From Octopus vulgaris (lineage: Eukaryota), in the NCBI GenBank assembly GCA_951406725.2, contig OX597815.1:192696001-192760000 (forward strand): a stretch of 64,000 bases of DNA, given 5' to 3'. The notes beneath the pieces are model-generated. The model was given only the letters and a program-made list of their open reading frames with translations, was not told the DNA's origin and searched no databases. Shown in pieces: positions 1,210 to 64,000 of this stretch (position 1 is the stretch's first letter; the number at the start of each line of letters is the position of its first letter). The position numbers and the translations under genes were made by a program.

Positions 1210-1704
1210 GTTTGGAGATTTGGCATTTGATGCCCAGTGTCCAACTTTAGAGGAGGTTTGTGTGCAGATATAGTTTTGCATGCCAATTAGAAAAAAAACA
1301 CATTTTAGAGAAATTTATAATACAAAAGTTAATAACCTTTAAATATTGATATTTTTTTGTAATTTTAGCCAATCAGGCATATTGATTCTCAACAGATTCT
1401 TGCAAAGTGCCATGTTTTTAATTTGAGTTTTTTTTTTTGGGGGGGGGGGATTCTGAAACTCAAGTAAAAGAAAAACGAAAACATCTCGTCTTTGGAGAAA
1501 TTGATAATAAAGACACTGCAGATTAAAAAAAGGCTATAGGCTTCACACAAGCATAGAATGGCATTCAGTGGGGAATACAGTCTCAGAGAACAACTTCCTA
1601 GAGATTCTATGCTATCGTTATTTTAATTCCTTGCTGTTTCAAGAAGACATACTGACAAAACATAGGCCTGGCAAGCATCCAGATACATCCAGAAATGTTT
1701 TGAT

Positions 1705-2121
1705 TACTCTTTTACTCGTTTACTTGTTTCAGTCATTTGACTGTGGCCATGCTGGGGCACCGCCTTTTAGTTGAGCAAATCGATGCCAGGACTTATTCTT
1801 TGTAAGCCTAGTACTTATTCTATCGGTCTCTTTTGCCGATCCACTAAGTTACGGGCACGTAAACACACCAGCATCGGTTGTCAAGCAATGTTGGGGGGAC
1901 AAACACAGACACACAAACATATACACATACACATATATACACATGTACATACATATATACGACGGGCTTCTTTCAGTTTCCGTCAACCAAATCCACTCAC
2001 AAGGCTTTGGTCGGCCCAAGGCTATAGTAGAAGACACTTGCCCAAGGTACCACGCAGTGGGACTGAACCCAGAACCATGTTATTCGTAAGCAAGCTACTT
2101 ACCACACAGCCACTCCTACGC
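1705..2121 (-). mobile_element. SINE family A (tRNA-derived head, internal TA/CA microsatellite, AAAAGAGT tail)
   Basis: Reverse complement starts GCGTAGGAGTGGCTGTGTGG (A box) ... GGTTCAGTCCC (B box) ... CCTTGGGCAAGTG (CORE-like). More than 12 similar copies occur in the window. Confidence 0.9.
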
Positions 2122-6719: not shown

Positions 6720-8985
6720 TATAGCATGGACCCATTTACAAACATGCAGAACTAAACAGCCATAGAGTACAGGTGCTACAGACAAACTATGAGCCTTCTC
6801 TGTATGGATAATTTGAAGATATTTACAAGAGATAATACTAAGCTGGAAAGCCTGCTAACACTGTATAAATTAAGTCATGACATAAAAATGAGTGTGGGAT
6901 TAGATAAATGTGCCAAAGATAGTTTAAGAGGCAAATTAATTAGAACCAGGAAAATTAAATAAGATATAGACACCAAAATCAGAGAATTAGACAAGAATCA
7001 AGCAGAGAAATACGAAGGAATAGGTGAAGCCAATAAAATTCCAATAAATACATAAAGCAAGACTATTATAAAAGTGTCAGGCTAATTATTTAAAACTGAA
7101 TTCAATGCTAGAAATAAGATAGTAGGTATAAATATGCTTGTCATTCCAGTTATAAGTTATAATCTCAATCATCATAAAAAAAATTTTAAAAACTGAAAGT
7201 GAATTGAATTGAATAGCTTAGACAGAAAACCTAGGAAATGACTGATGGTATTACCAAAGACTCTCTCTCTCAAACCTGATATAGATAGAATATACCTAAA
7301 TCATACAAAAGCCGGGGAAGCGAAATGAAATAGCTAAAAAAATAACAATGGTAGGATGGAAAAATATTTAGAAGCAAGTAAAGGGAAGCTTTTAAGAGTA
7401 ATAAGGAAACATAAAAAGAAAAAAAAAAAAACTTCTTTCCTGTATGTAAGGAAACACCACGAGAAGTACAAACTGAAAATCAATTATACTGAAATAACAG
7501 ATTTAGGCATGGACAGACTAAAGAAAAAAAGGTTTTGAAAAATTTCAAAATTGAAATAGATTTCCAAAATATATTGAAGAAAAAAATTAAAGAAGAAAAG
7601 GAAATCATGCCATGGCTAACATCCACAAGACTTGATAGAGAAATATGACAGAATGGAGGCTAACAATAGCTCAAAGCTCAGAGCTAAAACTAGAAACAGG
7701 TCTGATATTAGCAGCTCAGGACCAATGTCTAACCACAAACAACCACAACAAATAAAATAGTAAAAGATTATACTAGGCGCAGGAGTGGCTGTGTGGTAAG
7801 TAGCTTGCTTACCAACCACATGGTTCCGGGTTCAGTCCCACTGCATGGTACCTTGAGCAACTGTCTTCTACTATAGCCTCGGGCCGACCAAAGCCTTGTG
7901 AGTGGATTTGGTAGTCGGAAACTGAAAGAAGCCCGTCGCATACATGTATATATATATATGTGTGTGTGTTTGTGTGTCTGTGTTTGTCCCCCCAACATCA
8001 CTTGACAACCGATGCTGGTGTGTTTACGTCCCCGTAACTTAGCGGTTCGGCAAAAGAGACTGATAGAATAAGTACTAGAATTACAAAGAATAAGTCTTGG
8101 GGTCGATTTGCTCGACTAAAGGCAGTGCTCCAGCATGGCCGCAGTCAAATGACTGAAACAAGTAAAAAGAGTAACAAGTACCAAAATAGTACCAGAGTCT
8201 ACAAACCAAGCCCATAGCTATTGGCTGAATTTCCATGGATTTAAAAACACAATGCCACACGCACCTCAAGAACACAGAGTGCACCTGGTGGTATAGTAGA
8301 AACTTACATGAAAGTGTTAAACATAATAGTAACAGGGACTTGCAAATATGCACAAAATAGGGGGAAAAAATATAGCACAATTAGATACTACATATATATT
8401 AAGTAGAGAACTTTCAATGCAACAGAAACAACAAAACCTAAACAAAACACTGCCCTTACACAAAACACAAAGAGCTGTGTTCAGTAATGCAATAATAATA
8501 ATAATAATTCTTTTTAATTTCAGCACAAGGCCAAGAATACCGAATATTAATAAAAACAATATATATATATAAAAGTTAATAGTTGCATTCAATGGAAATT
8601 CAGATAGGATTTTATAAACATTATAATAATAATATTGTATAAAAATAATAATCTCTCATGATGTGACAATATTTAAGTATTGAAGAGTATGTTGATTCTA
8701 ACAAAGAAAGAGGCAGATCACCAGGTTATTATTAACAAAGACCATCTTTTCTCTTTTGATCGATTATCAATCCCTACCGATATGAATCTAGCCCCAGAGA
8801 AGAATAATCCAAATATGAAGATATCCAGAATATGAAGACTGGAAACAGAAACAATCTTGATAATAACAGGTGGGCCAAGAATAACAAAAAGAGACAAAGA
8901 TAGGTAAAAATGTAGCTAATATTTCAGAAAATTGTAAATATACTCAACATGCGAAAAATACCGTTATCAGGGCATAGAACAAATA
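6720..8985 (+). pseudogene. Degraded R4/Dong-like non-LTR retrotransposon ORF (RT plus restriction-like endonuclease region), interrupted by a SINE A
   Basis: Collinear broken-frame motifs LLCMDNLKIF (YMDDLK), GLDKCAK, NARNKIVGINMLVIPVISY, LDRKPRK, KPDIDRIYL and LILAAQDQCL, then SIPTDMN...KYED...ISRI*RLETETILIITG near 8780-8880. Confidence 0.7.
7776..8174 (+). mobile_element. SINE family A, full length
   Basis: GGCGCAGGAGTGGCTGTGTGG head, B box GGTTCAGTCCC, internal (TA)(TG)n and AAGAGTAA tail. Confidence 0.92.
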
Positions 8986-9289: not shown

Positions 9290-9636
9290 AGCTCTATACT
9301 TCATTGATACTTTGTTTTATCAACCACAGGAAGAAGAACTTTGAGTAAGAATCCTGCAGGGGTCAGCGGGATTCAAACTCAAAATTTAATGGAATGTAAC
9401 TAACAAGTAAAGACATTCACCATTTCTACTATCTGTTGTCATCATCAATAACAGGAGGCGCAGGAGTGGCTTTGTGGTAAGTACCTTGCATACCAACCAC
9501 ATGGTTCCGGGTTCAATCCCACTGCGTAGCACCTTGGGCAAGTGTCTCCTACTATAGCTTTGGGCCGACCAAAGCCTTGTGAGTGGATTTGGTAGACAGA
9601 AACTGAATGAAGCCTGTCATATATATGCATATATAT

Positions 9637-9684
<48 letters not shown>

Positions 9685-10700
9685 GTGAGTCTGTGTTTGC
9701 CTCCCCAACATAGCTTGACAACCGATACTGGTGTGTTTATGTCCCTGTAACCTAGCGGTTCAGCAAAGGAGACCGATAGAATAAGTACTAGGCTTACAAA
9801 GAATAAGACCTGGGGTCGATTTGCTCGACTAAAGGCAGTGCTCCAGCATGGCTACAGTCAAATGACTGAAACAAGTAAAAAGAGTAACAATTATTCTAAT
9901 GTAGTGACAAAGCCAACAATTTTGAAAGATGGGGCATAGTCAGTAACATGAGCCTCAATACTTAGCTGGAACTTCATTTTATTGACCCCAGAGGGTTAAA
10001 AGGTAGAGCTGACCTTTACAGGATTAGAACTCAAAACATAAAGTGCTGAAATAAATGTCATAAAATACATTTTTTTCTGATGCTCTAATAGTTCTGCCAA
10101 TCCACTGTCTTAATCATCAATAATAATAATGGGTTTTAAGTGAAACACAAATATAGTGATTTGGGTGGAAGGGAAATAGTCAATTGCATCAGCTCCAGTA
10201 CTTGATTGGTACTTTATTTAATCAACCCCAAGAGAATGAAAGGCAAGATCGACCAAGCCAGAACAATTACCACAAGGCATTCATTCTGACGTAATGATTG
10301 CTAATCCACTGTCCTTTATTTTAATAAAAACTCAAGACCAGAAATTTGGTGGAAGGGAGGAATCAATTAAATTGACCCCAGTACAATCTTGGAAGGAAGA
10401 AAAGCAACGTTGACCTTGAAAGAATTTGAACACAGAACATAAAGAGCTGCAACATATATTACCAGACTTTGTCCAAAGCTCTATAATGATTATTTCTAGT
10501 TTAAGTAAAAGGCCAATGATTTTAAGGGGAGCAGTTTAGTTGATACCATCAACCCCAGTACTTGAGTGATACTTAATTTTATTACCCTTAGAATAATAAA
10601 AGGTAAGACTGACCTTGGCAGAACATAAGGAACCAGAACAAATATTGCAAGACTTTTTCCCTGACACTCAAAGGATTCTACTAAGCCATTTCTAACAGAT
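9290..10700 (-). mobile_element. Cluster of at least five old SINE B-type monomers in the same orientation (span includes a SINE A)
   Basis: Repeated degenerate gaccccagta...ggtactt...tgaaaggcaa...gacct...gaatttgaactcagaac motifs at about 9290, 9900, 10140, 10330 and 10505. Confidence 0.65.
9457..9886 (+). mobile_element. SINE family A, full length
   Basis: Same head, body and tail as 7776-8174, with a long internal (TG)n. Confidence 0.92.
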
Positions 10701-20719: not shown

Positions 20720-20934
20720 TACTCCTTTACTCTTTTACGTGTTTCAGTCATTAGACTGTGGCCATGCTGAAGCAACGCCTTTAGTCGAGCAAATTGACCC
20801 CAGGACTTATTCTTTGTAAGCCTAGTACTTATTCTATCGGTCCCTTTTGCCAAACCACAAAGTTATGGGGACATAAACACACCAGCATCAGTTGTCAAGG
20901 GATGTTGGGGGGACAAACACAGACACAAACTTAT

Positions 20935-20997
<63 letters not shown>

Positions 20998-21160
20998 TAC
21001 GACAGGCTTCTTTCAGTTTCCGTCTACCAAATCCACTCACAAGGCTTTGGCCGGCCCGAGGCTATAGTAGAAGACACTTGCCCAAGGTGCCATGAAGTGG
21101 GACTGAACCCGGAACCATGTGGTTTGTAAACAAGCTGTTTACTTACCACACATCCACTCC
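20720..21160 (-). mobile_element. SINE family A
   Basis: Family A consensus with a long internal (TA)n. Confidence 0.9.
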
Positions 21161-21599
21161 TTACTTTTCACAAGTAAATGACATCCAGGAGATAAACCTA
21201 GTACAAAATCTTTAATAAGAAACAAGAAATAGAATTTTTTCAGTCAAAATCCTATCAATATCAAAATAACTAAGTATGGCCTTTTTTAGTTCAAATTCCC
21301 TGTGCTTTGTTGTCCATGTAAGCACCTGCACTTAGCAGTGAAGAACAGTTACCAGTTCATCGGGAAGTATTACTTGAAATAAACTGTTATTTTATGCAAA
21401 AGGAGATTTAAATCTTAATTGCTTCATGCCATGGAACTAGAGCTAAAGTCAAGAATACTTTGGGATAAAGGATTTTCCTCTATCCCAAAGTGCTCTGAGG
21501 TTTAACTTCAGTTCTCATCAAAGTATCTACTTTGAATCAGAGATAAATGCTAGCTTTTAAAGGCTTTTTAGAGCTTAGGAAGCGTTCACACCGAGATAA

Positions 21600-23965: not shown

Positions 23966-23967
23966 TA

Positions 23968-24378
23968 TTACTCTCTTTACTCTTTTACTTGTTTCAGTCC
24001 TTTGACTGCGGCCATGCTGGAGCACCGCCTTTAGTCGAGCAAATCGACCCCGGGACATATTCTTTGTAAGCCTAGTACTTATTCTATTGGTCTCTTTTGC
24101 TGAACCGCTAAGTGACAGGGACATAAACACACCAGCATTGGTTGTCAAGCAATGCTAGGGGGACAAACACAGACATGCAAACACACATGCACACACATAT
24201 ATATATACATATGTACGACGGGCTTCTTTCAGCTTCCGTCTACCAAATCCACTCACAAGGCATTGGTCGGCCCGAGGCTATAGTAGAAGACACTTGCCCA
24301 AGGTGCCACGCAGTGGGACTGAACCCGGAACCATGTGGTTTGTAAGCAAGCTACTTACCACACAGCCACTCCTGCACC
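23968..24378 (-). mobile_element. SINE family A
   Basis: Family A consensus, abutting the family G head. Confidence 0.9.
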
Positions 24379-24864
24379 CTGTATTATATACTGTATTGTA
24401 TCAATGAATTTTGATTGACCATCAGACCAATTTAGCAGTCAGCAGGACACTACGAAAACAACCAATTGCAGTATTGCCGGTTTAAATTTAGTTAATCACA
24501 AACACAGACGATTCCGTAGCAGAAAAGTTATTTTAAAATTTATTTATTTAATTATATTCCTAATTGAAGGATGCAAATAGGCTTGGCTTACATGCATACA
24601 CATAGTTTTGTGAGAAATTGAAGAGTGACAGTAATGAAGATTGAATATATTAATGATGGTAAATTAAAGGATTAAGTGAATATATTATTGATGCAATATT
24701 CTCATAAAGGACAGATTGAATATATTAGCAAGAGTATATTCCAATAAATTTAAGTATGAATATATCAAAGATGGTATATATTCCAATAAAGAATAGAATG
24801 AATATATTTATAATGACAGATGCTAATAAATTATCATAATCATAATAGTAATAATAATAATAAC

Positions 24865-26774: not shown

Positions 26775-27365
26775 TTTTGTTGCCAACAGAGGTAAAAGCT
26801 CTCTGAACTTCTTCCATCCTTTCCTTATTCTAGCAACTACACTTTTAGAATCTCCTCCTCCACTGCTAATTCAGTTGCCTAGATAACAGAAACTTTCTAC
26901 TACTTCTAGGGAGCTGACAAGGCATTCAAAAGAACCAATTTCTGATGTGTCCCTAGCTTTAAGGTACCTGTGCATCTTCCATACAGAAACACTACTTTCT
27001 CCATCAACTGTCCAGTGATTCCACTGGACCCCTTGAGTGTCCATAGCTTGCACTGGACATATCATATGGAATTGCTACCTCTGCCTTTCCTACATATCAA
27101 ACAGGGCCATTTACCTGAAGTGAGTAGAATCTTATCAGTTTTCCTGCACATTAGAACTTTGGTCTTTGCTAGCTTAACTTTAAGGCCCTTTAATTCCAGG
27201 TTTTGCTTCCACACCTGGAATTTTTTTTCTAATTCTGTTAAAGATTCTGCTACAAAAGTGGTCATCAGCATATGGTAGCTCACAGGGGCAGCTAGTCTTG
27301 AATTCTTCTGTTATGGCCTGGAGGACAATGATGAATAGGAGGGGACTGAGAACTGAGCCCTCATG
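26775..27365 (-). pseudogene. RTE-like LINE reverse transcriptase fragment with Cys-rich insert
   Basis: HEGSVLSPLLFIIV...ELPYADD, LEKKFQVWKQNLELKGLKVKLAKTKVL, WPCLICRKG and LEVVESFCYLG in shifted frames. Confidence 0.85.
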
Positions 27366-27854
27366 GTTAACTCTCACATCTTCATCATCTTCTCTCCTCT
27401 TGCTCTCCATCTGAGGTAGCCATGTTACTCTTCTAACACAAGTGGTTGGCATAAGGAAGGTTGGCTATAGAAACCATGCCAAAGCAGACAGCAAGGCTAG
27501 GTGCAATCTTCTGATTTTCCAGTTCCTGTCAAACTATCCAACCCATGCTAGCATAGAAAACGAATGCTAAATGATAATGAGGGTGATGACGATGACGACA
27601 ACAACGAAGTCCTATCTGTTTCTCTAACCCTTAATGGTCTTTTCAAATAAGTAATTTTCCATGCATCTTTGAAGGTGCAAAACCAGATGATTTGTTTAGA
27701 GGAATATGAAAACAAACACACAGACATACATATATATATGCATATGGACATACACACAACATACACATACACATATATATACATATGTACGAACAAACAC
27801 ATACATATATATATACATACACATATATACATACAAATGTAGACACATATACAC

Positions 27855-35337: not shown

Positions 35338-36060
35338 AGGCATGGCTGTGTAGTAAGAAGTTTGCTTCCCAATCAGATAGTCCCAGGTTCTGTCCCATTG
35401 CATGACATCTTGGGCAAGTGTCTTCTATCATTGCCTCAGGCTTACTAAAGCCTTGTGAGTGGATTTGGTAAAGATAAACTGAATGAAGCCCATCATGTGT
35501 GTTTGTGTGTATGTGTGTCGTTTTGTGTCTGCACTTGTGGTTGTTTCCCATTGATGTTTGACAAGTGTGTTTATGTCTCTATAGCTTTGTGGTTTGGCAA
35601 AAAGAGACCAATAGAATAAGTGCCATGTTAAATAAAAAAATAAATAAATAAAGCGCAGGAGTGGCTGTGTGGTAAGTAGCTTGCTAACCAACCACATGGT
35701 TCTGGGTTCAGTCCCACTGCGTGGCAATTTGGGCAAGTGTCTTCTGCTATAGCCCCAGGCTGACCAATGCCTTGTGAGTGGATTTGGTAGATGGAAACTG
35801 AAAGAAGCCTGTCGTATATATGTATATATATATATGTGTGTGTGTGTTTGTGTTTGTCCCCCTAGTATTGCTTGACAACCGATGCTGGTGTGTTTACGTC
35901 CCCGTCACTTAGCGGTTCGGCAAAAGAGACCAATAGAATAAGTACTGGGCTTACAAAGAATAAGTCCCGGGGTCGATTTGCTCGACTGAAGGCGGTGCTC
36001 CAGCATGGCCACAGTCAAATGACTGAAACAAGTAAAAGAGTAAAAGAGAAAGAGTAAAAG
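35338..36060 (+). mobile_element. Two tandem SINE A copies (old 35338-35625; young 35653-36060)
   Basis: Two successive family A heads and bodies. Confidence 0.88.
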
Positions 36061-40918: not shown

Positions 40919-41322
40919 TACTCTTTTACTTGTTTCAGTCATTTGACTTGACTCTGGCCATGCTGGAGCACCGCCTTTAGTCAAGCAAATCGACCCCAAG
41001 ACTTATTCTTTGTATGCCTAGTACTTATTCTATTGGTCTCTTTTGCCGAACCGCTAAGTTATGGGGACATAAACACACCAACATCAGTTGTTAAGCGATG
41101 TTGGGAGGACAAACACAGATACACAAACATACACACACACACACACATATATATATACGACAGGCTTCTTTCAGTTTCCCTCTACCAAGTCCACTCACAA
41201 GGCTTTGGTCGGCCCGAGGCTATAGTAGAAGACACTTGACCAAGGTGCCACACAGTGGGACTGAACCCAGAACCATGTGGTTGGTTAAGCAAGCTACTTA
41301 CCACACAGCCACTCCTATGCCT
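40919..41322 (-). mobile_element. SINE family A
   Basis: Family A consensus. Confidence 0.9.
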
Positions 41323-43608
41323 ATACGTTTCAGTATTTTGCAACACATGATGTCACACTAGAGACACAATCAGTTGGTGCAGCTTATAGGACAGACAGGG
41401 AGCAAACACATCATCAGACAATCAATAAGGAAATACATCATAGCCAACCATTAGATACAGACAACCTGTGCGTACAGGCAACAGTGGGAGTTTGATGTGA
41501 TTAACATTAGAGCAGAAACCTATGTGGTGTAATTGTCACACATTGAGCACCTCTGATCATAACTATACATGTATATACAAATACACACACAACCACATAC
41601 AAACCCCTGCATGCAAATCAATACAGATATGCACAAACCACGATACAGATACTTATTTATGAATACACAACACATATACATGTATATGTGTGTGTGTGTG
41701 TGTTAATGCAGATATTTTGATTTAATGAGACTAAAGTGTAAACCACTTAATGGTCTAAGGGGTTATAAATAAAAACAAAACATCAATACAGAATAAAAAT
41801 TTATATTAAAATAGTTTCCAACAAATGTTTAATAACCATGATTATAGGCCTTGGACCATTTCACATATGTAATATACAGATAGTGGTTTTTTAGTTGTTG
41901 TTTTTTTTGAGATCAGTAAGAACTGTACTGATACAAAAAGTTATTTGGTACTTATATTAAATTGCTCACCACCATGTGAAAGAGAAATTCTTCTTTCTCC
42001 TAGTTGTTCTTCATTTCTCAAAATATCTGAGACACAATAAAATCTAGAATTTTTTCTCTCAACTACACAGGATTTCAGTACCATACTTTCATAGTATTTT
42101 TAATGCACCCATTAGATCACGGTAATATGAGAGCAAAGAGGTATGACAAATATATGTACAAAAATGTGTTTATGTGTTGTGAGTAAAAAGACATACATAC
42201 TAACACACACACATATCCATATATACATATACATGGATATAAACATATATGCATACATACACACATATAAATGCACACACATAGACTAATATATATGAGA
42301 AATTATAATCAAAACAAGTTTATATCAATTGTTCCCGACATATGTTTCCACATTGTGGTTGTTTGGAACCTCTGCATTGGATGTTTGAAGTATAATTAGA
42401 TTCTTTATTGTATCATACTACAGAAATTTCTGTAACACAAACACACATATATATATATACAAAGATAAACACATATATATCTACATATATACATTTATAT
42501 ATGCTGAAGTGTTCAAGTCGAGGCATTTAAATGTGTGCTGTGTGCAAGAAGTAAGATGGTGAGGAGCCTCTTCTAGTCTCCTTATAGGTAAAGAACAAAG
42601 CCACAAACTCTTCTGGGTGTGTAGCAGTAATGGCATGGGTGATATAGGAATATTCTTGGCAGAGAAATGGACAGATAAAGTAACTGAAATAGTCAGAATG
42701 TGTGACAGGATTTTTAAGTTAAGACTAGTATTAGATAATACAACAGTAACATTTTTCTTGGCATATACTTGGTAAGATGGACTGGCAGATGAACAGAAAA
42801 CCACGAGGCCCTTCTGGTGATTACCACTGACAAATGGCTGATGACTTCAGTGAACATACTGAGCAGCACCCTAATGGATTTCATGGTATGTAAGTTATGG
42901 CTTTAGTTCTAGAAATGAGGAGAGACCAAAGTTACAGAGGGGATTCAGATGTTGTAAATGATACCTCTACATGTATTCCTTTATTCTCCCATAATTTACA
43001 TTGTCTCCCTATTACTGTTCTTTATCACTTTCTCCCACTGCCTGACTCATTCCTGTTTCCTTCACTTCTCCCAAAGTGACATTCACCATTGACCATACCT
43101 CCATCTATGTGCCCCATTTGCTGCATCATTCTCAATCCAAACCTCTCGTCATATGTCATACTCCTTTCACGTGCTCACAAACTTACTACCCTTCCACCCT
43201 TTCTGACACTCAGTCTCAATTATTTCATTTAATCTTGTACCATGAAGGTACACCTTCACATCCCTCTCTCTCTCTAACTTGGGAAGCCATGTATCTCCTC
43301 TTCAACAAGATACTTGCTCCTGCCTCTCTGTCACACTTTCATCTCCCACAAAACTATATATTCACTTAGTCATAGAACTTTGACTTGGAAGTTATTAGGT
43401 GACCCCCACAGGTGCAATATAAAAAGCACCCACAGAACACTTTGGTAAGTGAAGTGGTTGGTATTAGGAAGAGCACCTAGCCAGAACCATCATGCCAAAA
43501 CAGAAACTGAATCTCGGCCCTATCCTCTGGTTCATTAGATCCTGTCAATCCATCCAACCCAAGCCAGCGTGGAAAATGAACACACACACACACACACGCA
43601 CACACATA

Positions 43609-43821: not shown

Positions 43822-43864
<43 letters not shown>

Positions 43865-43891
43865 GAAAAAAGCAACAAGAATGGATTAAAA

Positions 43892-43979
43892 TCTCGGTAC
43901 AATTGTTTCGTACGAGGACATCTTTAATAAGCTACAAAAAATACAGTAAATACAGATGGCTCGTACTCGTCAGCCGAAA
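43892..43979 (-). ncRNA. Type I hammerhead ribozyme motif, extended stem II
   Basis: UUUCGG-CUGACGA-GUACGAG...CUCGUAC-GAAA-CAAUUG-UA-CCGAGA; the core is canonical and stem I is fully paired. Confidence 0.82.
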
Positions 43980-44420
43980 AAACATCAGAGAATTCCCAAA
44001 CATCAAAAGGGGTAGATACAAATGAGGGTGTAAGATTAACTGCATTGAAGTTCAATGCATTGTAAGTTCAAGACTTTTTATCGGATCTCCAGGAATCGAA
44101 CTTATCTGTGATTCTTGTAACAATCTGTTCCTCTACACGATATGATAGTCACTTTGCTTCTTACTCGGATTTTCCTCTACACGATATGACAGTCACTTTG
44201 CTTCTTACTCGGATTTTCAGAAATTTCACATGACTGTATCTGAAATTTCTTCACATAACTTGATTAACAATTCAATATGAGCTATATATAGACATGCACA
44301 AATTCTGTAAGTTTAAGACCTTTCATTGGATCTCCAGGAATCGAACTTTCGTCAATGCAGTTAATCTTACACCCTCATTTGTATTTACCCCTTTTGATGT
44401 TTGGGAATTCTCTGATGTTT

Positions 44421-44508
44421 TTTCGGCTGACGAGTACGAGCCATCTGTATTTACTGCATTTTTTGTAGCTTATTAAAGATGTCCTCGTACGAAACAATTG
44501 TACCAAGA
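44421..44508 (+). ncRNA. Type I hammerhead ribozyme motif, extended stem II
   Basis: UUUCGG-CUGACGA(44427-44433)-GUACGAG...CUCGUAC-GAAA(44491-44494)-CAAUUG-UA-CCAAGA; one stem I mismatch. Confidence 0.78.
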
Positions 44509-44696
44509 TTTTAATCCATTCTTGTTGCTTTTTTCCTATTTGTAATCACCCCACTTGTCGTATGGTTAACACCATATAGATTTCCGGTGCATCCTAGTTA
44601 AGGACCATATTCATGTGAATTCATTAGAATTCACTTGAATCTCAATTACTTAAACCGTATATCATCATCATCATCATCATCGTTTAACGTCCGTTT

Positions 44697-61082: not shown

Positions 61083-61243
61083 ATGGCTGTGTGGTAAGTA
61101 GCTTGCTAACCAACCACATGGTTCCGGGTTCAGTCCCTCTGCGTGGCATCTTGGGCAAGTGTCTTCTGCTATAGCCCCGGGCCGACCAATGCCTTGTGAG
61201 TGGATTTGGTAGACGGAAACTGAAAGAAGCCCGTTGTATTTAT

Positions 61244-61283
<40 letters not shown>

Positions 61284-61503
61284 TTGTGTGTCTGTGTTTG
61301 TCACCCTAGCATTGCTTGGACAACCGATGCTGGTGTGTTTACGTCCCCGTCACTTAGCGGTTCGGCAAAAGAGACCTGATAGAATAAGTACTGGGCTTAC
61401 AAAGAATAAGCCGCGGGGTTGATTTGCTCGACTAAAGGCGGTGCTCCAGCATGGCCGCAGTCAAATGACTGAAACAAGTAAAAGAGTAAAAAAGTAAAGA
61501 GTA
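61083..61503 (+). mobile_element. SINE family A
   Basis: Family A consensus lacking the first few bases. Confidence 0.9.
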
Positions 61504-61744: not shown

Positions 61745-63034
61745 GAGGGACGTTCAAAAAGTAATGCCCCTGACCCACTTGCTGTTGTTTGATCTAGCCG
61801 AAGTTTTGCATGTGCAATTATTCATATCTTTCTAGATTAAGTTGCAAATTACAGCTCTGAACTAATTGTGGTTTCTGATTTACAGGCGTTTGAACTGAGA
61901 CAAGTGTGAAATGGAGCCTGTTGAGTGTCGAGCAGTGATCCGGTTTTTGTATTTGAAAGGATGCACACCACGGAAGACTTTTGATGAAATGAAAGTAACT
62001 TATGGTGATGATGCCCCATCATATGACCTTGTAAGACGCTGGCATTGTGAATTCAAACATGGTCGGAACTCTGTGGAAACAGCTCCTAAATCTGGTCGCC
62101 CCACTTCTGCATTGATGAGGCATCTGTCCATCAAGTTGAGGCTGCCATTTTGGAAGATCGACGCATAACTATTCGCCAAATAGCACATGAGGTCAAGATT
62201 AGTACTGGGTCTGTGGAAACTATCATTCATGACCATTTGCATATGCAAAAGGTGTCTGTCAGATGGATTCCCAGGTTGCTCACACCTTTCCAGAAGCAAG
62301 AACGCGTTGAGTGCTCGAGAATGAATTTGGAGATGTGCCAAGAAGACGAGTCAAAATTTTTCAAAAGACTGATTACACAGGATGAAACCTGGGTCCATCA
62401 CTATGATCCAGAGACCAAAGCCCAGTCAATGCAGTGGAAGCACTGTGACTCACCTCCTCCAAAGAAGGCAAGGGTGCAGCCCTCCGCTGGCAAGGTCATG
62501 CTCACTGTCTTCTGGGACCAGGATGGAGTAGTGATGACAGATTTCCTGGCAAAGGGTACCACAATTGCAGGAGCTTATTATGCTTCACTTTTGAGGAAAT
62601 TAAGAGAAGTTATCAAAATCAAGAGGCGGGGCAAGATCAGCAAAGGCATCCTCCTCCTGCAGGACAACGCTCCGGTCCACAACTCATGTGTCACCAGATC
62701 AGAAGCACAGACATGCGGCTATGAACTCCTACCCCATCCCCACTACCCTCCTGACCTTGCACCCTCTGATTTTCACCTCTTCCCAGCCATGAAGTTGTTT
62801 TTGAAAGGAAAGCGTTTCCCAGATGATGCAGCCTTGATTTCTGAAGTCACATCGTGGTTGGAGGACGAAGCTGGGGTCTTCTACAAAAACGGTCTCCAGA
62901 GCTGCATCAAATGATGGGAGAAATGCGTAACTCTGAGTGGTTCCTATGTAAAAAAAGACTAATAACTGTGCCAAGTTTCATTGCTCTACTCTATGGGAAG
63001 TGGGTCAGGGGCATTACTTATTAAACGCCCCTCG
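61744..63034 (+). mobile_element. Full-length mariner transposon (irritans-like termini)
   Basis: 37-bp TIRs CGAGGGRCGTTYAAWAAGTAATGCCCCTGACCCACTT (3 mismatches), TA flanks within (TA)n, 1291 bp long. Confidence 0.95.
61911..62962 (+). pseudogene. Mariner D,D34D transposase with one frameshift and one premature stop
   Basis: HTH N-terminus, WIPRLL, TQDETW, LQDNAPVH and YPPDLAPSD (34 residues between the last two Asp). A 1-bp deletion near 62110 and a TGA at 62912 precede WEKCV...YVKKD*. Confidence 0.93.
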
Positions 63035-63547: not shown

Positions 63548-63584
<37 letters not shown>

Positions 63585-63706
63585 CAAAAATTTAGATTCA
63601 AATGAATATGGTAATTAATTTAGATGCACCAGAATTCTGTATGGTGTTATCCATAAAAATCCGTGGGGTAATTCTAATCAAAATAAGCAACAAGAATGAC
63701 TCCGGT

Positions 63707-63796
63707 AATTTGGTACGATCATTTCGTACAACATCATTTTATTAAATGTTGTAAGTATTACAACAGTTTTAAAATGCTGAGCACTCATCAGCCAAT
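63707..63796 (-). ncRNA. Type I hammerhead motif (left arm)
   Basis: AAUUGG-CUGAUGA-GUGC...GUAC-GAAA-UGAUCG-UA-CCAAAUU. Confidence 0.68.
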
Positions 63797-63909
63797 TATA
63801 GAGGTTTTCCATTAATACAAAAATTTTCATATCAAGTGGCAATTTCTCTACCTTCTCTATAATGTTGCCACTTGATATAAAATTTTTTGTATTAATGGAA
63901 AACCTCTAT

Positions 63910-64000
63910 AATTGGCTGATGAGTGCTCAGCATTTTAAAACTGTTGTAATAATTACAACATTTAATAAAATGATGTAGTATGAAACAATTGTACCAAATT
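63910..64000 (+). ncRNA. Type I hammerhead motif (right arm)
   Basis: AAUUGG-CUGAUGA(63916-63922)-GUGC...GUAU-GAAA(63982-63985)-CAAUUG-UA-CCAAAUU. Confidence 0.72.

What the first reader, a model, noticed from the sequence alone, without database searches (positions are those of the whole stretch)
43859..44655. Inverted-repeat element with a pair of divergent hammerhead ribozymes and an unusually long stem II
Seen: two 190-bp inverted arms, each with an intact hammerhead core (CUGACGA...GAAA...GUA), stem I UUUCGG/CCGAGA and a minimal palindromic stem III (CAAUUG). Stem II spans 57 nt (GUACGAG/CUCGUAC extended by CAUCU/AGAUG and an inner hairpin). Known: Penelope-like elements have inverted pseudo-LTRs and minimal type I hammerheads whose palindromic stem III favours dimer cleavage, and their stem II is usually short. 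Inference: this is a non-autonomous ribozyme retroelement. In any read-through transcript the sense ribozyme lies downstream of its own antisense copy, so it could be sequestered in long dsRNA, which is also a potential ADAR substrate.
Basis: partly seen in the sequence, partly recalled or inferred. Interest (0 to 1): 0.8.

Follow-up and report, generated by a model that had tools for sequence, protein, structure and literature searches.

The report
Penelope fold-back with long-armed hammerheads
The two outward-facing hammerhead ribozyme motifs are real and sit in a fold-back copy of an abundant repeat that is likely the tail end of a Penelope-like jumping gene; that layout is already known, but the ribozyme's second arm is over twice as long as in the animal examples checked and is predicted to keep its shape in a second, diverged element.

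Summary
Observation largely confirmed. There are two 190-nt inverted arms (43859-44048 / 44352-44541), each with a type I hammerhead core and a 57-nt stem II, plus a one-sided 116-nt tail. Correction: only the left arm has CCGAGA. A descriptor gave 4 hits against 0.01 per shuffled window. Public contigs show an abundant family with depth falling 5'-ward, two 3' ends running into (TA)n, and another inversion breakpoint. They also show a linked CAAUUG/CGAUCG swap that keeps the stem III palindrome, as a dimer would need. An inverted 5'-truncated copy, a tail, a (TA)n target and hammerheads on opposite strands are all published for Penelope-like elements (PLEs), so the architecture is ordinary. 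No RT/GIY-YIG link was found, so clade and autonomy stay open. The new part is the three-tier 57-59-nt stem II (at most 24 nt in 26 animal rows checked; 48-53 nt in two plant PLEs), which Rfam misses. Cleavage, transcription and editing are untested.

The parts
43832..43859 (.). (TA)n microsatellite at the left flank; likely the insertion target
   Evidence: sequence
43859..44048 (-). Left arm of element 1: inverted, 5'-truncated, tail-less copy of the terminal repeat (190 nt)
43892..43979 (-). Left type I hammerhead: stem I UUUCGG/CCGAGA intact, core 43973-43967, stem II 43966-43910, stem III CAAUUG, predicted cut between 43898 and 43897. The best-preserved of the four copies
44040..44060 (.). 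Inversion junction with a small hairpin (8-bp stem, 3-nt loop)
   Evidence: the same joint 44049/44352 on opposite strands in 1 contig of run X3 (table 5)
44049..44351 (+). Non-coding spacer (element body upstream of the ribozyme). It holds a 43-nt direct repeat (44061-44103 / 44306-44348) and a 44-nt tandem duplication (44128-44215). Likely a ~200-245-nt unit that repeats upstream in other copies
   Evidence: loose ends before 44061 and X8 record 25; no relevant Pfam hit
44352..44541 (+). Right arm of element 1 (pseudo-LTR-like terminal repeat); 44541 is the short 3' end
   Evidence: 44542 reads A in 37-67% of depth
44421..44508 (+). Right type I hammerhead: core 44427-44433, 57-nt stem II 44434-44490 (IIa 7 bp, IIb 5 bp, IIc 5-bp hairpin), GAAA 44491, CAAUUG 44495-44500, predicted cut after 44502; private stem I mismatch at 44505
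44542..44657 (+). One-sided 116-nt tail. It holds a hairpin with an A/C-rich loop (about 44557-44581) shared with element 2, and a second hairpin at 44609-44641. It ends into TATA
   Evidence: loose ends behind 44662 read (TA)n in 8 records of X1 and 9 of X8
63582..64000 (-). Element 2: diverged relative with the same layout. Tail 63582-63674, arms 63707-63842 and 63865-64000 (about 94% alike), 22-nt spacer, (TA)n after the tail; cut off by the window end
63708..63797 (-). Element 2 tail-side hammerhead: core at 63791, 59-nt stem II, stem III UGAUCG, predicted cut after 63714
63910..63999 (+). Element 2 inverted-arm hammerhead: core at 63916, 59-nt stem II, stem III CAAUUG, predicted cut after 63993

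Best explanation
This is likely a 5'-truncated, fold-back insertion of the 3' end of a Penelope-like retroelement family, carrying a type I hammerhead with a long three-tier stem II that is predicted to cut only as a dimer. Shown: the arms, cores, tail and (TA)n flanks; a second element with the same layout; an abundant family in other data sets; two 3' ends; and a stem III palindrome kept through a two-base swap. Inferred: a PLE RT/GIY-YIG protein nicked a (TA)n tract and reverse-transcribed the RNA from two start sites, one about 39 nt and one about 155 nt downstream of the ribozyme cut. This would give a short tail-less copy and a longer tailed copy joined head to head. The ribozymes therefore point outward, and any read-through RNA would fold into a 190-bp duplex that hides the sense ribozyme; that is a by-product of insertion, not a switch. 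In the parental tandem RNA, two hammerheads would pair through the 8-nt palindrome ACAAUUGU (or ACGAUCGU) and cut after GUA, perhaps with protein help. The stem II extension is probably under structural selection, most likely as a binding or folding arm outside the catalytic core. This particular copy is likely inert debris.
For: Layout matches the published EN+ PLE unit: adjacent inverted 5'-truncated copy, one-sided tail, (TA)n target (PMC8557442 passages). Penelope-13_HM has an inverted 5' copy with hammerheads on both strands (supplement S1/S2). Dual hammerheads 100-700 bp apart on opposite strands are reported in Schistosoma (PMC4209133). Two RT start sites explain the tail in the lizard element PAc (PMC11167929). 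Family data (833, 112, 242 and 599 contigs laid from 4 of 4 runs): depth over the ribozyme is 53, 3.3, 6.6 and 15 times that over the 5' spacer; ends run into (TA)n at 44541 and about 44657-62; a different inversion joint (44122/44192) occurs in 1 contig of X8. Element 2 turns round at yet another point (22-nt spacer against 303 nt). Dimer: 44496 A>G and 44499 T>C occur at equal or near-equal depth in all 4 runs (77.8k/75.9k, 51/51, 1789/1789, 58.6k/58.6k). Cofolding two left ribozymes gives the double hammerhead as the minimum-energy structure. Structure is kept while sequence drifts: element 1 vs element 2 identity is 72% in core plus stems I/III (null 44%), 55% in stem II (null 47%) and 45% upstream (null 44%). 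63 of 64 cells pair, and 4 of 16 named pairs change on both sides. None of the 8 listed variant places in 44420-44508 falls in the 29 core and IIa positions (p about 0.04).
Against: No RT or GIY-YIG link was found: 142 of 348 candidate frames were scanned, giving only a mariner transposase and a weak RVT_1 fragment 17 kb away, and no genome is held. The tail is 116 nt (93 in element 2), against the published 30-40 nt. The palindrome swap is probably one event, both changes are CpG-type transitions, and both are also synonymous in a short frame from the ATG at 44479, so it is not unique proof of a dimer. One single-change palindrome still pairs through G·U (-5.8 against -6.4 kcal/mol). The double hammerhead was the cofold minimum for only 1 of 4 ribozymes; the right one kept the stem III duplex without stem I, and both of element 2 misfolded. 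The active monomer fold is 2-8 kcal/mol above the minimum. Covariation rests on two independent families; 21 of 500 shuffles reach 4 pairs. For the core alone, the lack of variants is not significant (p 0.21), and 23 variant rows were not shown. Removing the extension in silico barely changes IIa in element 1 (0.99-1.0 to 0.92-0.97), though it collapses in element 2 (0.64 to 0.03; 0.32 to 0.0). PLE hammerheads cut poorly in vitro (PMC4209133), and PAc insertion did not need cleavage (PMC11167929).
Confidence: 0.8

Rival explanations
1. A dedicated non-autonomous family (retrozyme- or SINE-like parasite of a PLE) built of non-coding ~200-nt repeats plus the ribozyme end. It is a sub-case of the best explanation, and its odds are those of 'no coding parent in this family'.
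For: About 370 nt upstream of the ribozyme carry no long frame and no relevant Pfam hit. One X8 contig covers 44061-44136 and continues upstream with the letters that precede the 44306 repeat, which points to a tandem non-coding unit (tables 7 and 8). Non-LTR retrozymes are proposed as PLE derivatives (bioRxiv 10.64898/2026.07.22.740005).
Against: Retrozymes have a hammerhead in every tandem unit; the upstream unit here has none. Autonomous PLEs can have 3' tandem repeats (Chlamys rows). Depth falling 5'-ward fits truncation of a longer element.
Confidence: 0.4
2. A MITE or fold-back DNA transposon with 190-bp terminal inverted repeats inserted at TA, which happens to carry a captured hammerhead.
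For: Long near-perfect inverted arms, TA flanks, no coding capacity; a mariner remnant lies in the window.
Against: The one-sided tail is shared with element 2; there are two alternative 3' ends; three different turn-round points are seen; depth is strongly asymmetric.
Confidence: 0.07
3. The inverted pair is a selected regulatory unit at this locus: read-through dsRNA silences the ribozyme and ADAR editing releases it.
For: Read-through folds bury the ribozyme (P of stem IIa 0.0, against 0.95-1.0 for plus-strand RNAs starting in the spacer). Octopus has very high hyper-editing, and lizard Penelope is heavily edited (PMC5625713).
Against: The layout is the routine insertion product. The right ribozyme carries a private stem I lesion. 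The left one is predicted to misfold even without the other arm when the RNA includes spacer beyond about 44120. No host exon was found nearby.
Confidence: 0.05
4. Chance hammerhead-like motifs, or an assembly artefact that created the inversion.
For: Rfam gives no hammerhead match; inverted PLE ends are known to trouble assemblies.
Against: 4 descriptor hits against 0.01 expected; the arms differ at 3 positions; the junction is seen in a contig of another run; a diverged second element keeps the core and the stems.
Confidence: 0.02

Closest known systems
Insertion unit of canonical EN+ Penelope-like elements, especially the (TA)n-targeting Hydra clade (e.g. Penelope-13_HM, Hydra-1_Obim) and Neptune (Craig et al. 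2021, PMC8557442; passages, section 11 and supplement parts 1-2 read)
   Same: Inverted 5'-truncated copy joined head to head, hammerheads on both strands pointing outward, one-sided tail, (TA)n target, sense type I hammerhead near the 3' end with a very short stem III
   Different: Stem II is 57-59 nt against at most 24 nt in the 26 animal rows of file S2; tail 93-116 nt against 30-40 nt; the hammerhead sequence differs from Hydra-1_oBim; no ORF linked, so the clade is not assigned
Minimal type I hammerheads of metazoan PLEs (Cervera and De la Pena 2014, PMC4209133; first two of four parts read)
   Same: CUGANGA/GAAA/UH core, G10.1-C11.1 pair, palindromic stem III and loop, 7-bp proximal helix II, dual motifs on opposite strands 100-700 bp apart
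   Different: Two further stacked helices beyond the proximal helix II; no extra unpaired base at the 5' start of stem II
Long-stem-II hammerheads of plant PLE-X1_sMoe and PLE-X1_sTam (PMC8557442 file S2)
   Same: Stem II domain of about 48-53 nt, flagged there as deviating from the canonical structure
   Different: Those are spike-moss, endonuclease-less, 28S-targeting elements with other stems; no sequence kinship seen by eye
PAc/Poseidon of Anolis (Frangieh et al. 2024, PMC11167929; passages and second part of main text read)
   Same: Two 3' ends downstream of the hammerhead defining a tail; an A/C-rich stem-loop in that region; AT-rich targets
   Different: In PAc the ORF starts in stem II and runs on; here the in-frame ATG at 44479 meets a stop after 11 codons
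Animal non-LTR retrozymes (PMC7761336 passages; bioRxiv 10.64898/2026.07.22.740005 part 1 and passages)
   Same: Non-coding, type I hammerhead, proposed PLE dependence
   Different: Retrozymes are head-to-tail tandems with a hammerhead in each unit; these copies are head to head

Membership tests
Type I hammerhead ribozyme | Conserved core CUGANGA, GAAA, UH in type I order | tested here: met
   4 of 4 sites
Type I hammerhead ribozyme | Stems I, II and III can form around the core | tested here: met
   Left arm: all three. Right arm: one stem I mismatch. Element 2: 4-bp stem I. 63 of 64 cells pair. Stem III is 2 bp as a monomer and 8 bp as a dimer
Type I hammerhead ribozyme | Match to an Rfam hammerhead model | tested here: not met
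   probably due to the 57-nt stem II and minimal stem III (inference)
Type I hammerhead ribozyme | Self-cleavage after NUH | not testable with these tools
   Needs an in vitro assay or raw RNA reads; all 24 listed runs were contigs or held next to nothing
EN+ Penelope-like element | RT plus GIY-YIG ORF in the family | tested here: inconclusive
   None in 142 of 348 frames of the window; no genome held
EN+ Penelope-like element | Sense hammerhead in the terminal repeat near the 3' end | tested here: met
   Cut site 39 and 155 nt from the two ends
EN+ Penelope-like element | Inverted 5'-truncated copy adjoining, with variable breakpoint | tested here: met
   Elements 1 and 2, plus the joint 44122/44192 in X8
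EN+ Penelope-like element | One-sided tail (published 30-40 nt) | tested here: inconclusive
   Tail present in both elements, but 93-116 nt long
EN+ Penelope-like element (Hydra/Neptune/Naiad type) | (TA)n target preference | tested here: met
   3 of 3 visible outer ends abut TA runs (short at 44658); loose ends in 8 and 9 records
Published octopus Naiad and Hydra consensi | Sequence identity with the consensus | tested here: inconclusive
   11 specific exact motifs gave 0 hits in the supplement, and a twelfth 9-mer gave 1 unrelated hit. Exact search is defeated by divergence and line breaks, and most motifs were tried on one strand only
Non-LTR retrozyme | Head-to-tail tandem units, each with a hammerhead | tested here: not met
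   Only head-to-head pairs in the window; other genomic copies could not be seen at that length
MITE / fold-back DNA transposon | Symmetric terminal inverted repeats with fixed ends | tested here: not met
   One-sided tail, two 3' ends, variable inner breakpoints

The most novel reading that the evidence does not exclude
An abundant, multi-subfamily group of PLE-derived elements in this animal lineage carries a distinct hammerhead subtype whose 57-59-nt three-tier stem II is a conserved docking arm for the element's own RT protein. That would be the missing 'protein-assist' handle. It is invisible to Rfam and to short-spacer descriptors, so PLE families reported to lack hammerheads (e.g. Naiad 'half-core' cases) may hide similar long-armed ribozymes. 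A GUAC repeated on both sides of stem IIa and at the cut site would act as a built-in off-fold.
Probability: 0.15. Interest if true: 0.65.

Novelty: new variant of a known kind. Interest (0 to 1): 0.34.

Why it matters
The role of PLE hammerheads is still open: they cut poorly alone and may need protein. A family with a long, structurally conserved stem II gives a clean deletion test for a protein- or folding-assist arm. It also shows that standard searches can undercount hammerheads (Rfam found none here; one descriptor in PMC8557442 allowed a 7-17-nt spacer). If the family is as abundant as the contig depth suggests, its fold-back copies would be a ready source of long dsRNA in an animal group known for heavy A-to-I editing. 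The inverted ribozyme pair itself is ordinary.

Tried and rejected
Own-genome search was not possible. Rfam found no hammerhead. A family-specific gapped pattern gave 0 in metagenome and 0 in viral contigs. A looser pattern gave 5 metagenome and 2 prokaryote-genome loci. None of the 7 has a palindromic stem III, and none folds as a closed rod from the core except partly L005, so they were treated as chance or unrelated. Pfam on 142 of 348 frames found no PLE domain; the other 206, mostly short or SINE-derived frames, were not scanned. No tRNA gene. A bacterial promoter scan was uninformative. Expression: no RNA holder was listed. Run X3 is only guessed to be RNA; its tail/ribozyme depth ratio is 1.83, against 0.19-0.51 in the other three runs, which would fit a stable 3' cleavage product, but contigs cannot show levels, so it is not used as evidence. 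Editing: X3 shows the same spectrum of changes as the DNA runs (A>G 6, T>C 14, against 6 and 16), which is uninformative in contigs of a multi-copy family. Summed depth is no copy number. RNAalifold on the 4 ribozymes did not return the hammerhead fold; it returned IIc and an alternative hairpin that pairs the 3' strand of IIa with the cut site, partly because MAFFT shifts helix IIb by one column. The idea that the extension is needed to stabilise IIa holds for element 2 only. A coding reading of the tail was rejected (shared in-frame stop, changes at all codon positions). Literature: searches showed no report of an octopus or cephalopod long-stem-II hammerhead. The 2026 O. vulgaris repeat paper has 0 mentions of hammerhead or ribozyme and lists Penelope-like at 6.83% (passages and supplement rows). 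Lunse et al. 2017 (PMC5785218) is not held and may list long variants. The supplementary figures of PMC4209133, Repbase and the bioRxiv supplements were not seen.

Full report
Setting. The window is repeat-rich, 27-42% GC eukaryotic DNA with many microsatellites and SINE-like repeats. It looks like octopus DNA; that is recalled from the look of the SINEs and microsatellites and comes from no call. No genome is held.

Observation. The inverted arms are real: 193 nt at 98% by the repeat finder, or 190 nt with 3 mismatches once the TA flank is left out. Each arm holds CUGACGA, a 57-nt stem II, GAAA, CAAUUG and UA, with predicted cuts after +44502 and -43898. The stem II domain folds as a rod of three helices with z = -4.89 and -3.01. 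The right arm has CCAAGA, while 97-100% of the depth in 4 of 4 runs has G there. Rfam sees no hammerhead. A descriptor allowing a long stem II finds exactly 4 sites in the window, against 0.01 per shuffle.

A second element. Two of those 4 sites lie at 63582-64000, in an element with the same plan: (TA)n, tail, hammerhead, a 22-nt turn, an inverted arm and a second hammerhead, cut by the window end. Its stem II is 59 nt and folds as the same three-tier rod (z = -3.14 and -2.77). Against element 1, identity is at chance upstream of the ribozyme (45% against 44%), 72% in the core with stems I and III, only 55% in stem II (null 47%), and 62-65% downstream and in the tail (nulls 47-50%). On the 4-row alignment 63 of 64 cells pair, and 4 of 16 named pairs change on both sides: one in stem I, two in IIc and one in the palindrome. 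Helix IIb was left out because MAFFT shifts it by one column. With only two independent families this is descriptive; 21 of 500 shuffles reach 4 pairs.

The family. 20 of 24 listed runs, from 11 studies and five organism labels, hold part of the element. I laid 4 of them on 44049-44665. Summed contig depth peaks over the ribozyme and falls 3- to 53-fold over the 5' spacer; this is no copy number, but it fits a very abundant, 5'-truncated family. There are two 3' ends. At 44542, 37-67% of depth reads A, as at the left arm's junction with (TA)n. Loose ends behind 44662 read (TA)n in 8 and 9 records. The window's own inversion joint recurs in 1 contig of X3, and a different joint (44122/44192) occurs in 1 contig of X8. 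Positions 44496 and 44499 change together at near-equal depth in all 4 runs, turning CAAUUG into CGAUCG and keeping the palindrome; element 2 carries one arm of each type. In a monomer these two bases would close a 2-nt loop, so pairing makes sense only between two molecules. Caveats: it is likely one event, both changes are CpG-type transitions, and both are synonymous in a short frame. None of the 8 listed variant places in the ribozyme hits the core or helix IIa (p about 0.04; core alone p 0.21; 23 rows not shown). One X8 contig suggests that the spacer is a ~200-245-nt non-coding unit that repeats upstream (tables 7 and 8).

Mechanism. The layout is the published product of EN+ PLE insertion: an inverted 5'-truncated copy next to the upstream repeat, a one-sided tail and a (TA)n target (PMC8557442). 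Penelope-13_HM is listed with exactly such an inverted copy and a hammerhead on each strand. Schistosoma has dual motifs 100-700 bp apart on opposite strands (PMC4209133); here the cores are about 450 nt apart. In the lizard element PAc, two internal RT start sites in an A/C-rich stem-loop define the tail, the hammerhead cuts only with the protein, and insertion does not need cleavage (PMC11167929). By analogy (inferred), the short arm and the tailed arm are cDNAs from two start sites, 39 and 155 nt past the cut. Both tails hold a hairpin with an A/C-rich loop (z = -1.65 in element 1, -3.26 in element 2). The monomer active fold lies 2-8 kcal/mol above the minimum. The double hammerhead is the cofold minimum for the left arm only, 1 of 4. 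Read-through RNA buries 74-78 of 78 ribozyme bases. Plus-strand RNAs starting in the spacer keep stem IIa, but minus-strand RNAs that include spacer beyond about 44120 are predicted to misfold. GUAC occurs before GAAA and at the cut site in 3 of 4 copies and allows an alternative hairpin. Removing the extension in silico matters in element 2 but hardly in element 1, so simple stabilisation does not fully explain the extension; a binding role is my guess.

What was not shown. No RT/GIY-YIG partner was found (142 of 348 frames), nor any relative with long flanks. There was no exact match to published octopus Naiad or Hydra consensi. There are no data on cleavage, transcription or editing. Octopus hyper-editing and heavily edited lizard Penelope (PMC5625713 passages) make editing plausible if the locus is transcribed.

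Comparison and verdict. It works like the terminal repeat of a (TA)n-targeting EN+ PLE; formal membership awaits the ORF. The divergent pair and dsRNA potential are known features. The stem II of 57-59 nt exceeds the 24-nt maximum of the 26 animal rows in PMC8557442 file S2, but two spike-moss PLE-X1 motifs there reach about 48-53 nt. Nine paper searches showed no description of this cephalopod-type variant; Lunse et al. 2017 could not be read. Verdict: a real feature and a new variant of a known kind, interest 0.34.

Noticed in passing
window 63582-64000: Second fold-back element with two 59-nt-stem-II hammerheads; its two arms carry different stem III variants (CAAUUG and UGAUCG). Cut off by the window end
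   Followed up: yes
window 61899-62914 (+): Mariner/Tc1 transposase remnant (HTH_48 E 1.6e-7; Transposase_1 E 6e-23), split over two frames
   Followed up: no
window 27183-27464 (-): Weak RVT_1 fragment (E 0.005), probably a LINE remnant; not linked to the element
   Followed up: no
window 44609-44641: Extra 33-nt hairpin in the tail of element 1 (z -3.48); element 2 lacks 20 nt here, which suggests a local inverted duplication
   Followed up: partly
window 44484-44508 and equivalents: The 3' strand of stem IIa can pair instead with the cut site and stem I; RNAalifold returns part of this as consensus. Possible built-in inactive fold
   Followed up: partly
run X3, loose end before 44512: A contig with a further variant of the IIa/GAAA/CAAUUG/UA segment and a different stem I strand, hinting at a third subfamily
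   Followed up: no
L004:2621-2696 and L007:4963-5038: Identical hammerhead-core-like pattern with a 53-nt spacer that folds as a hairpin, in a metagenome contig and a Porphyromonadaceae genome; may be a bacterial type I hammerhead or chance
   Followed up: no
window 1703-2121, 7750-8180, 9456-9893, 20720-21161, 23967-24387, 35630-36051, 40919-41323, 61084-61497: At least eight copies of a ~410-nt SINE-like repeat in both orientations, another source of long dsRNA in read-through RNA
   Followed up: no
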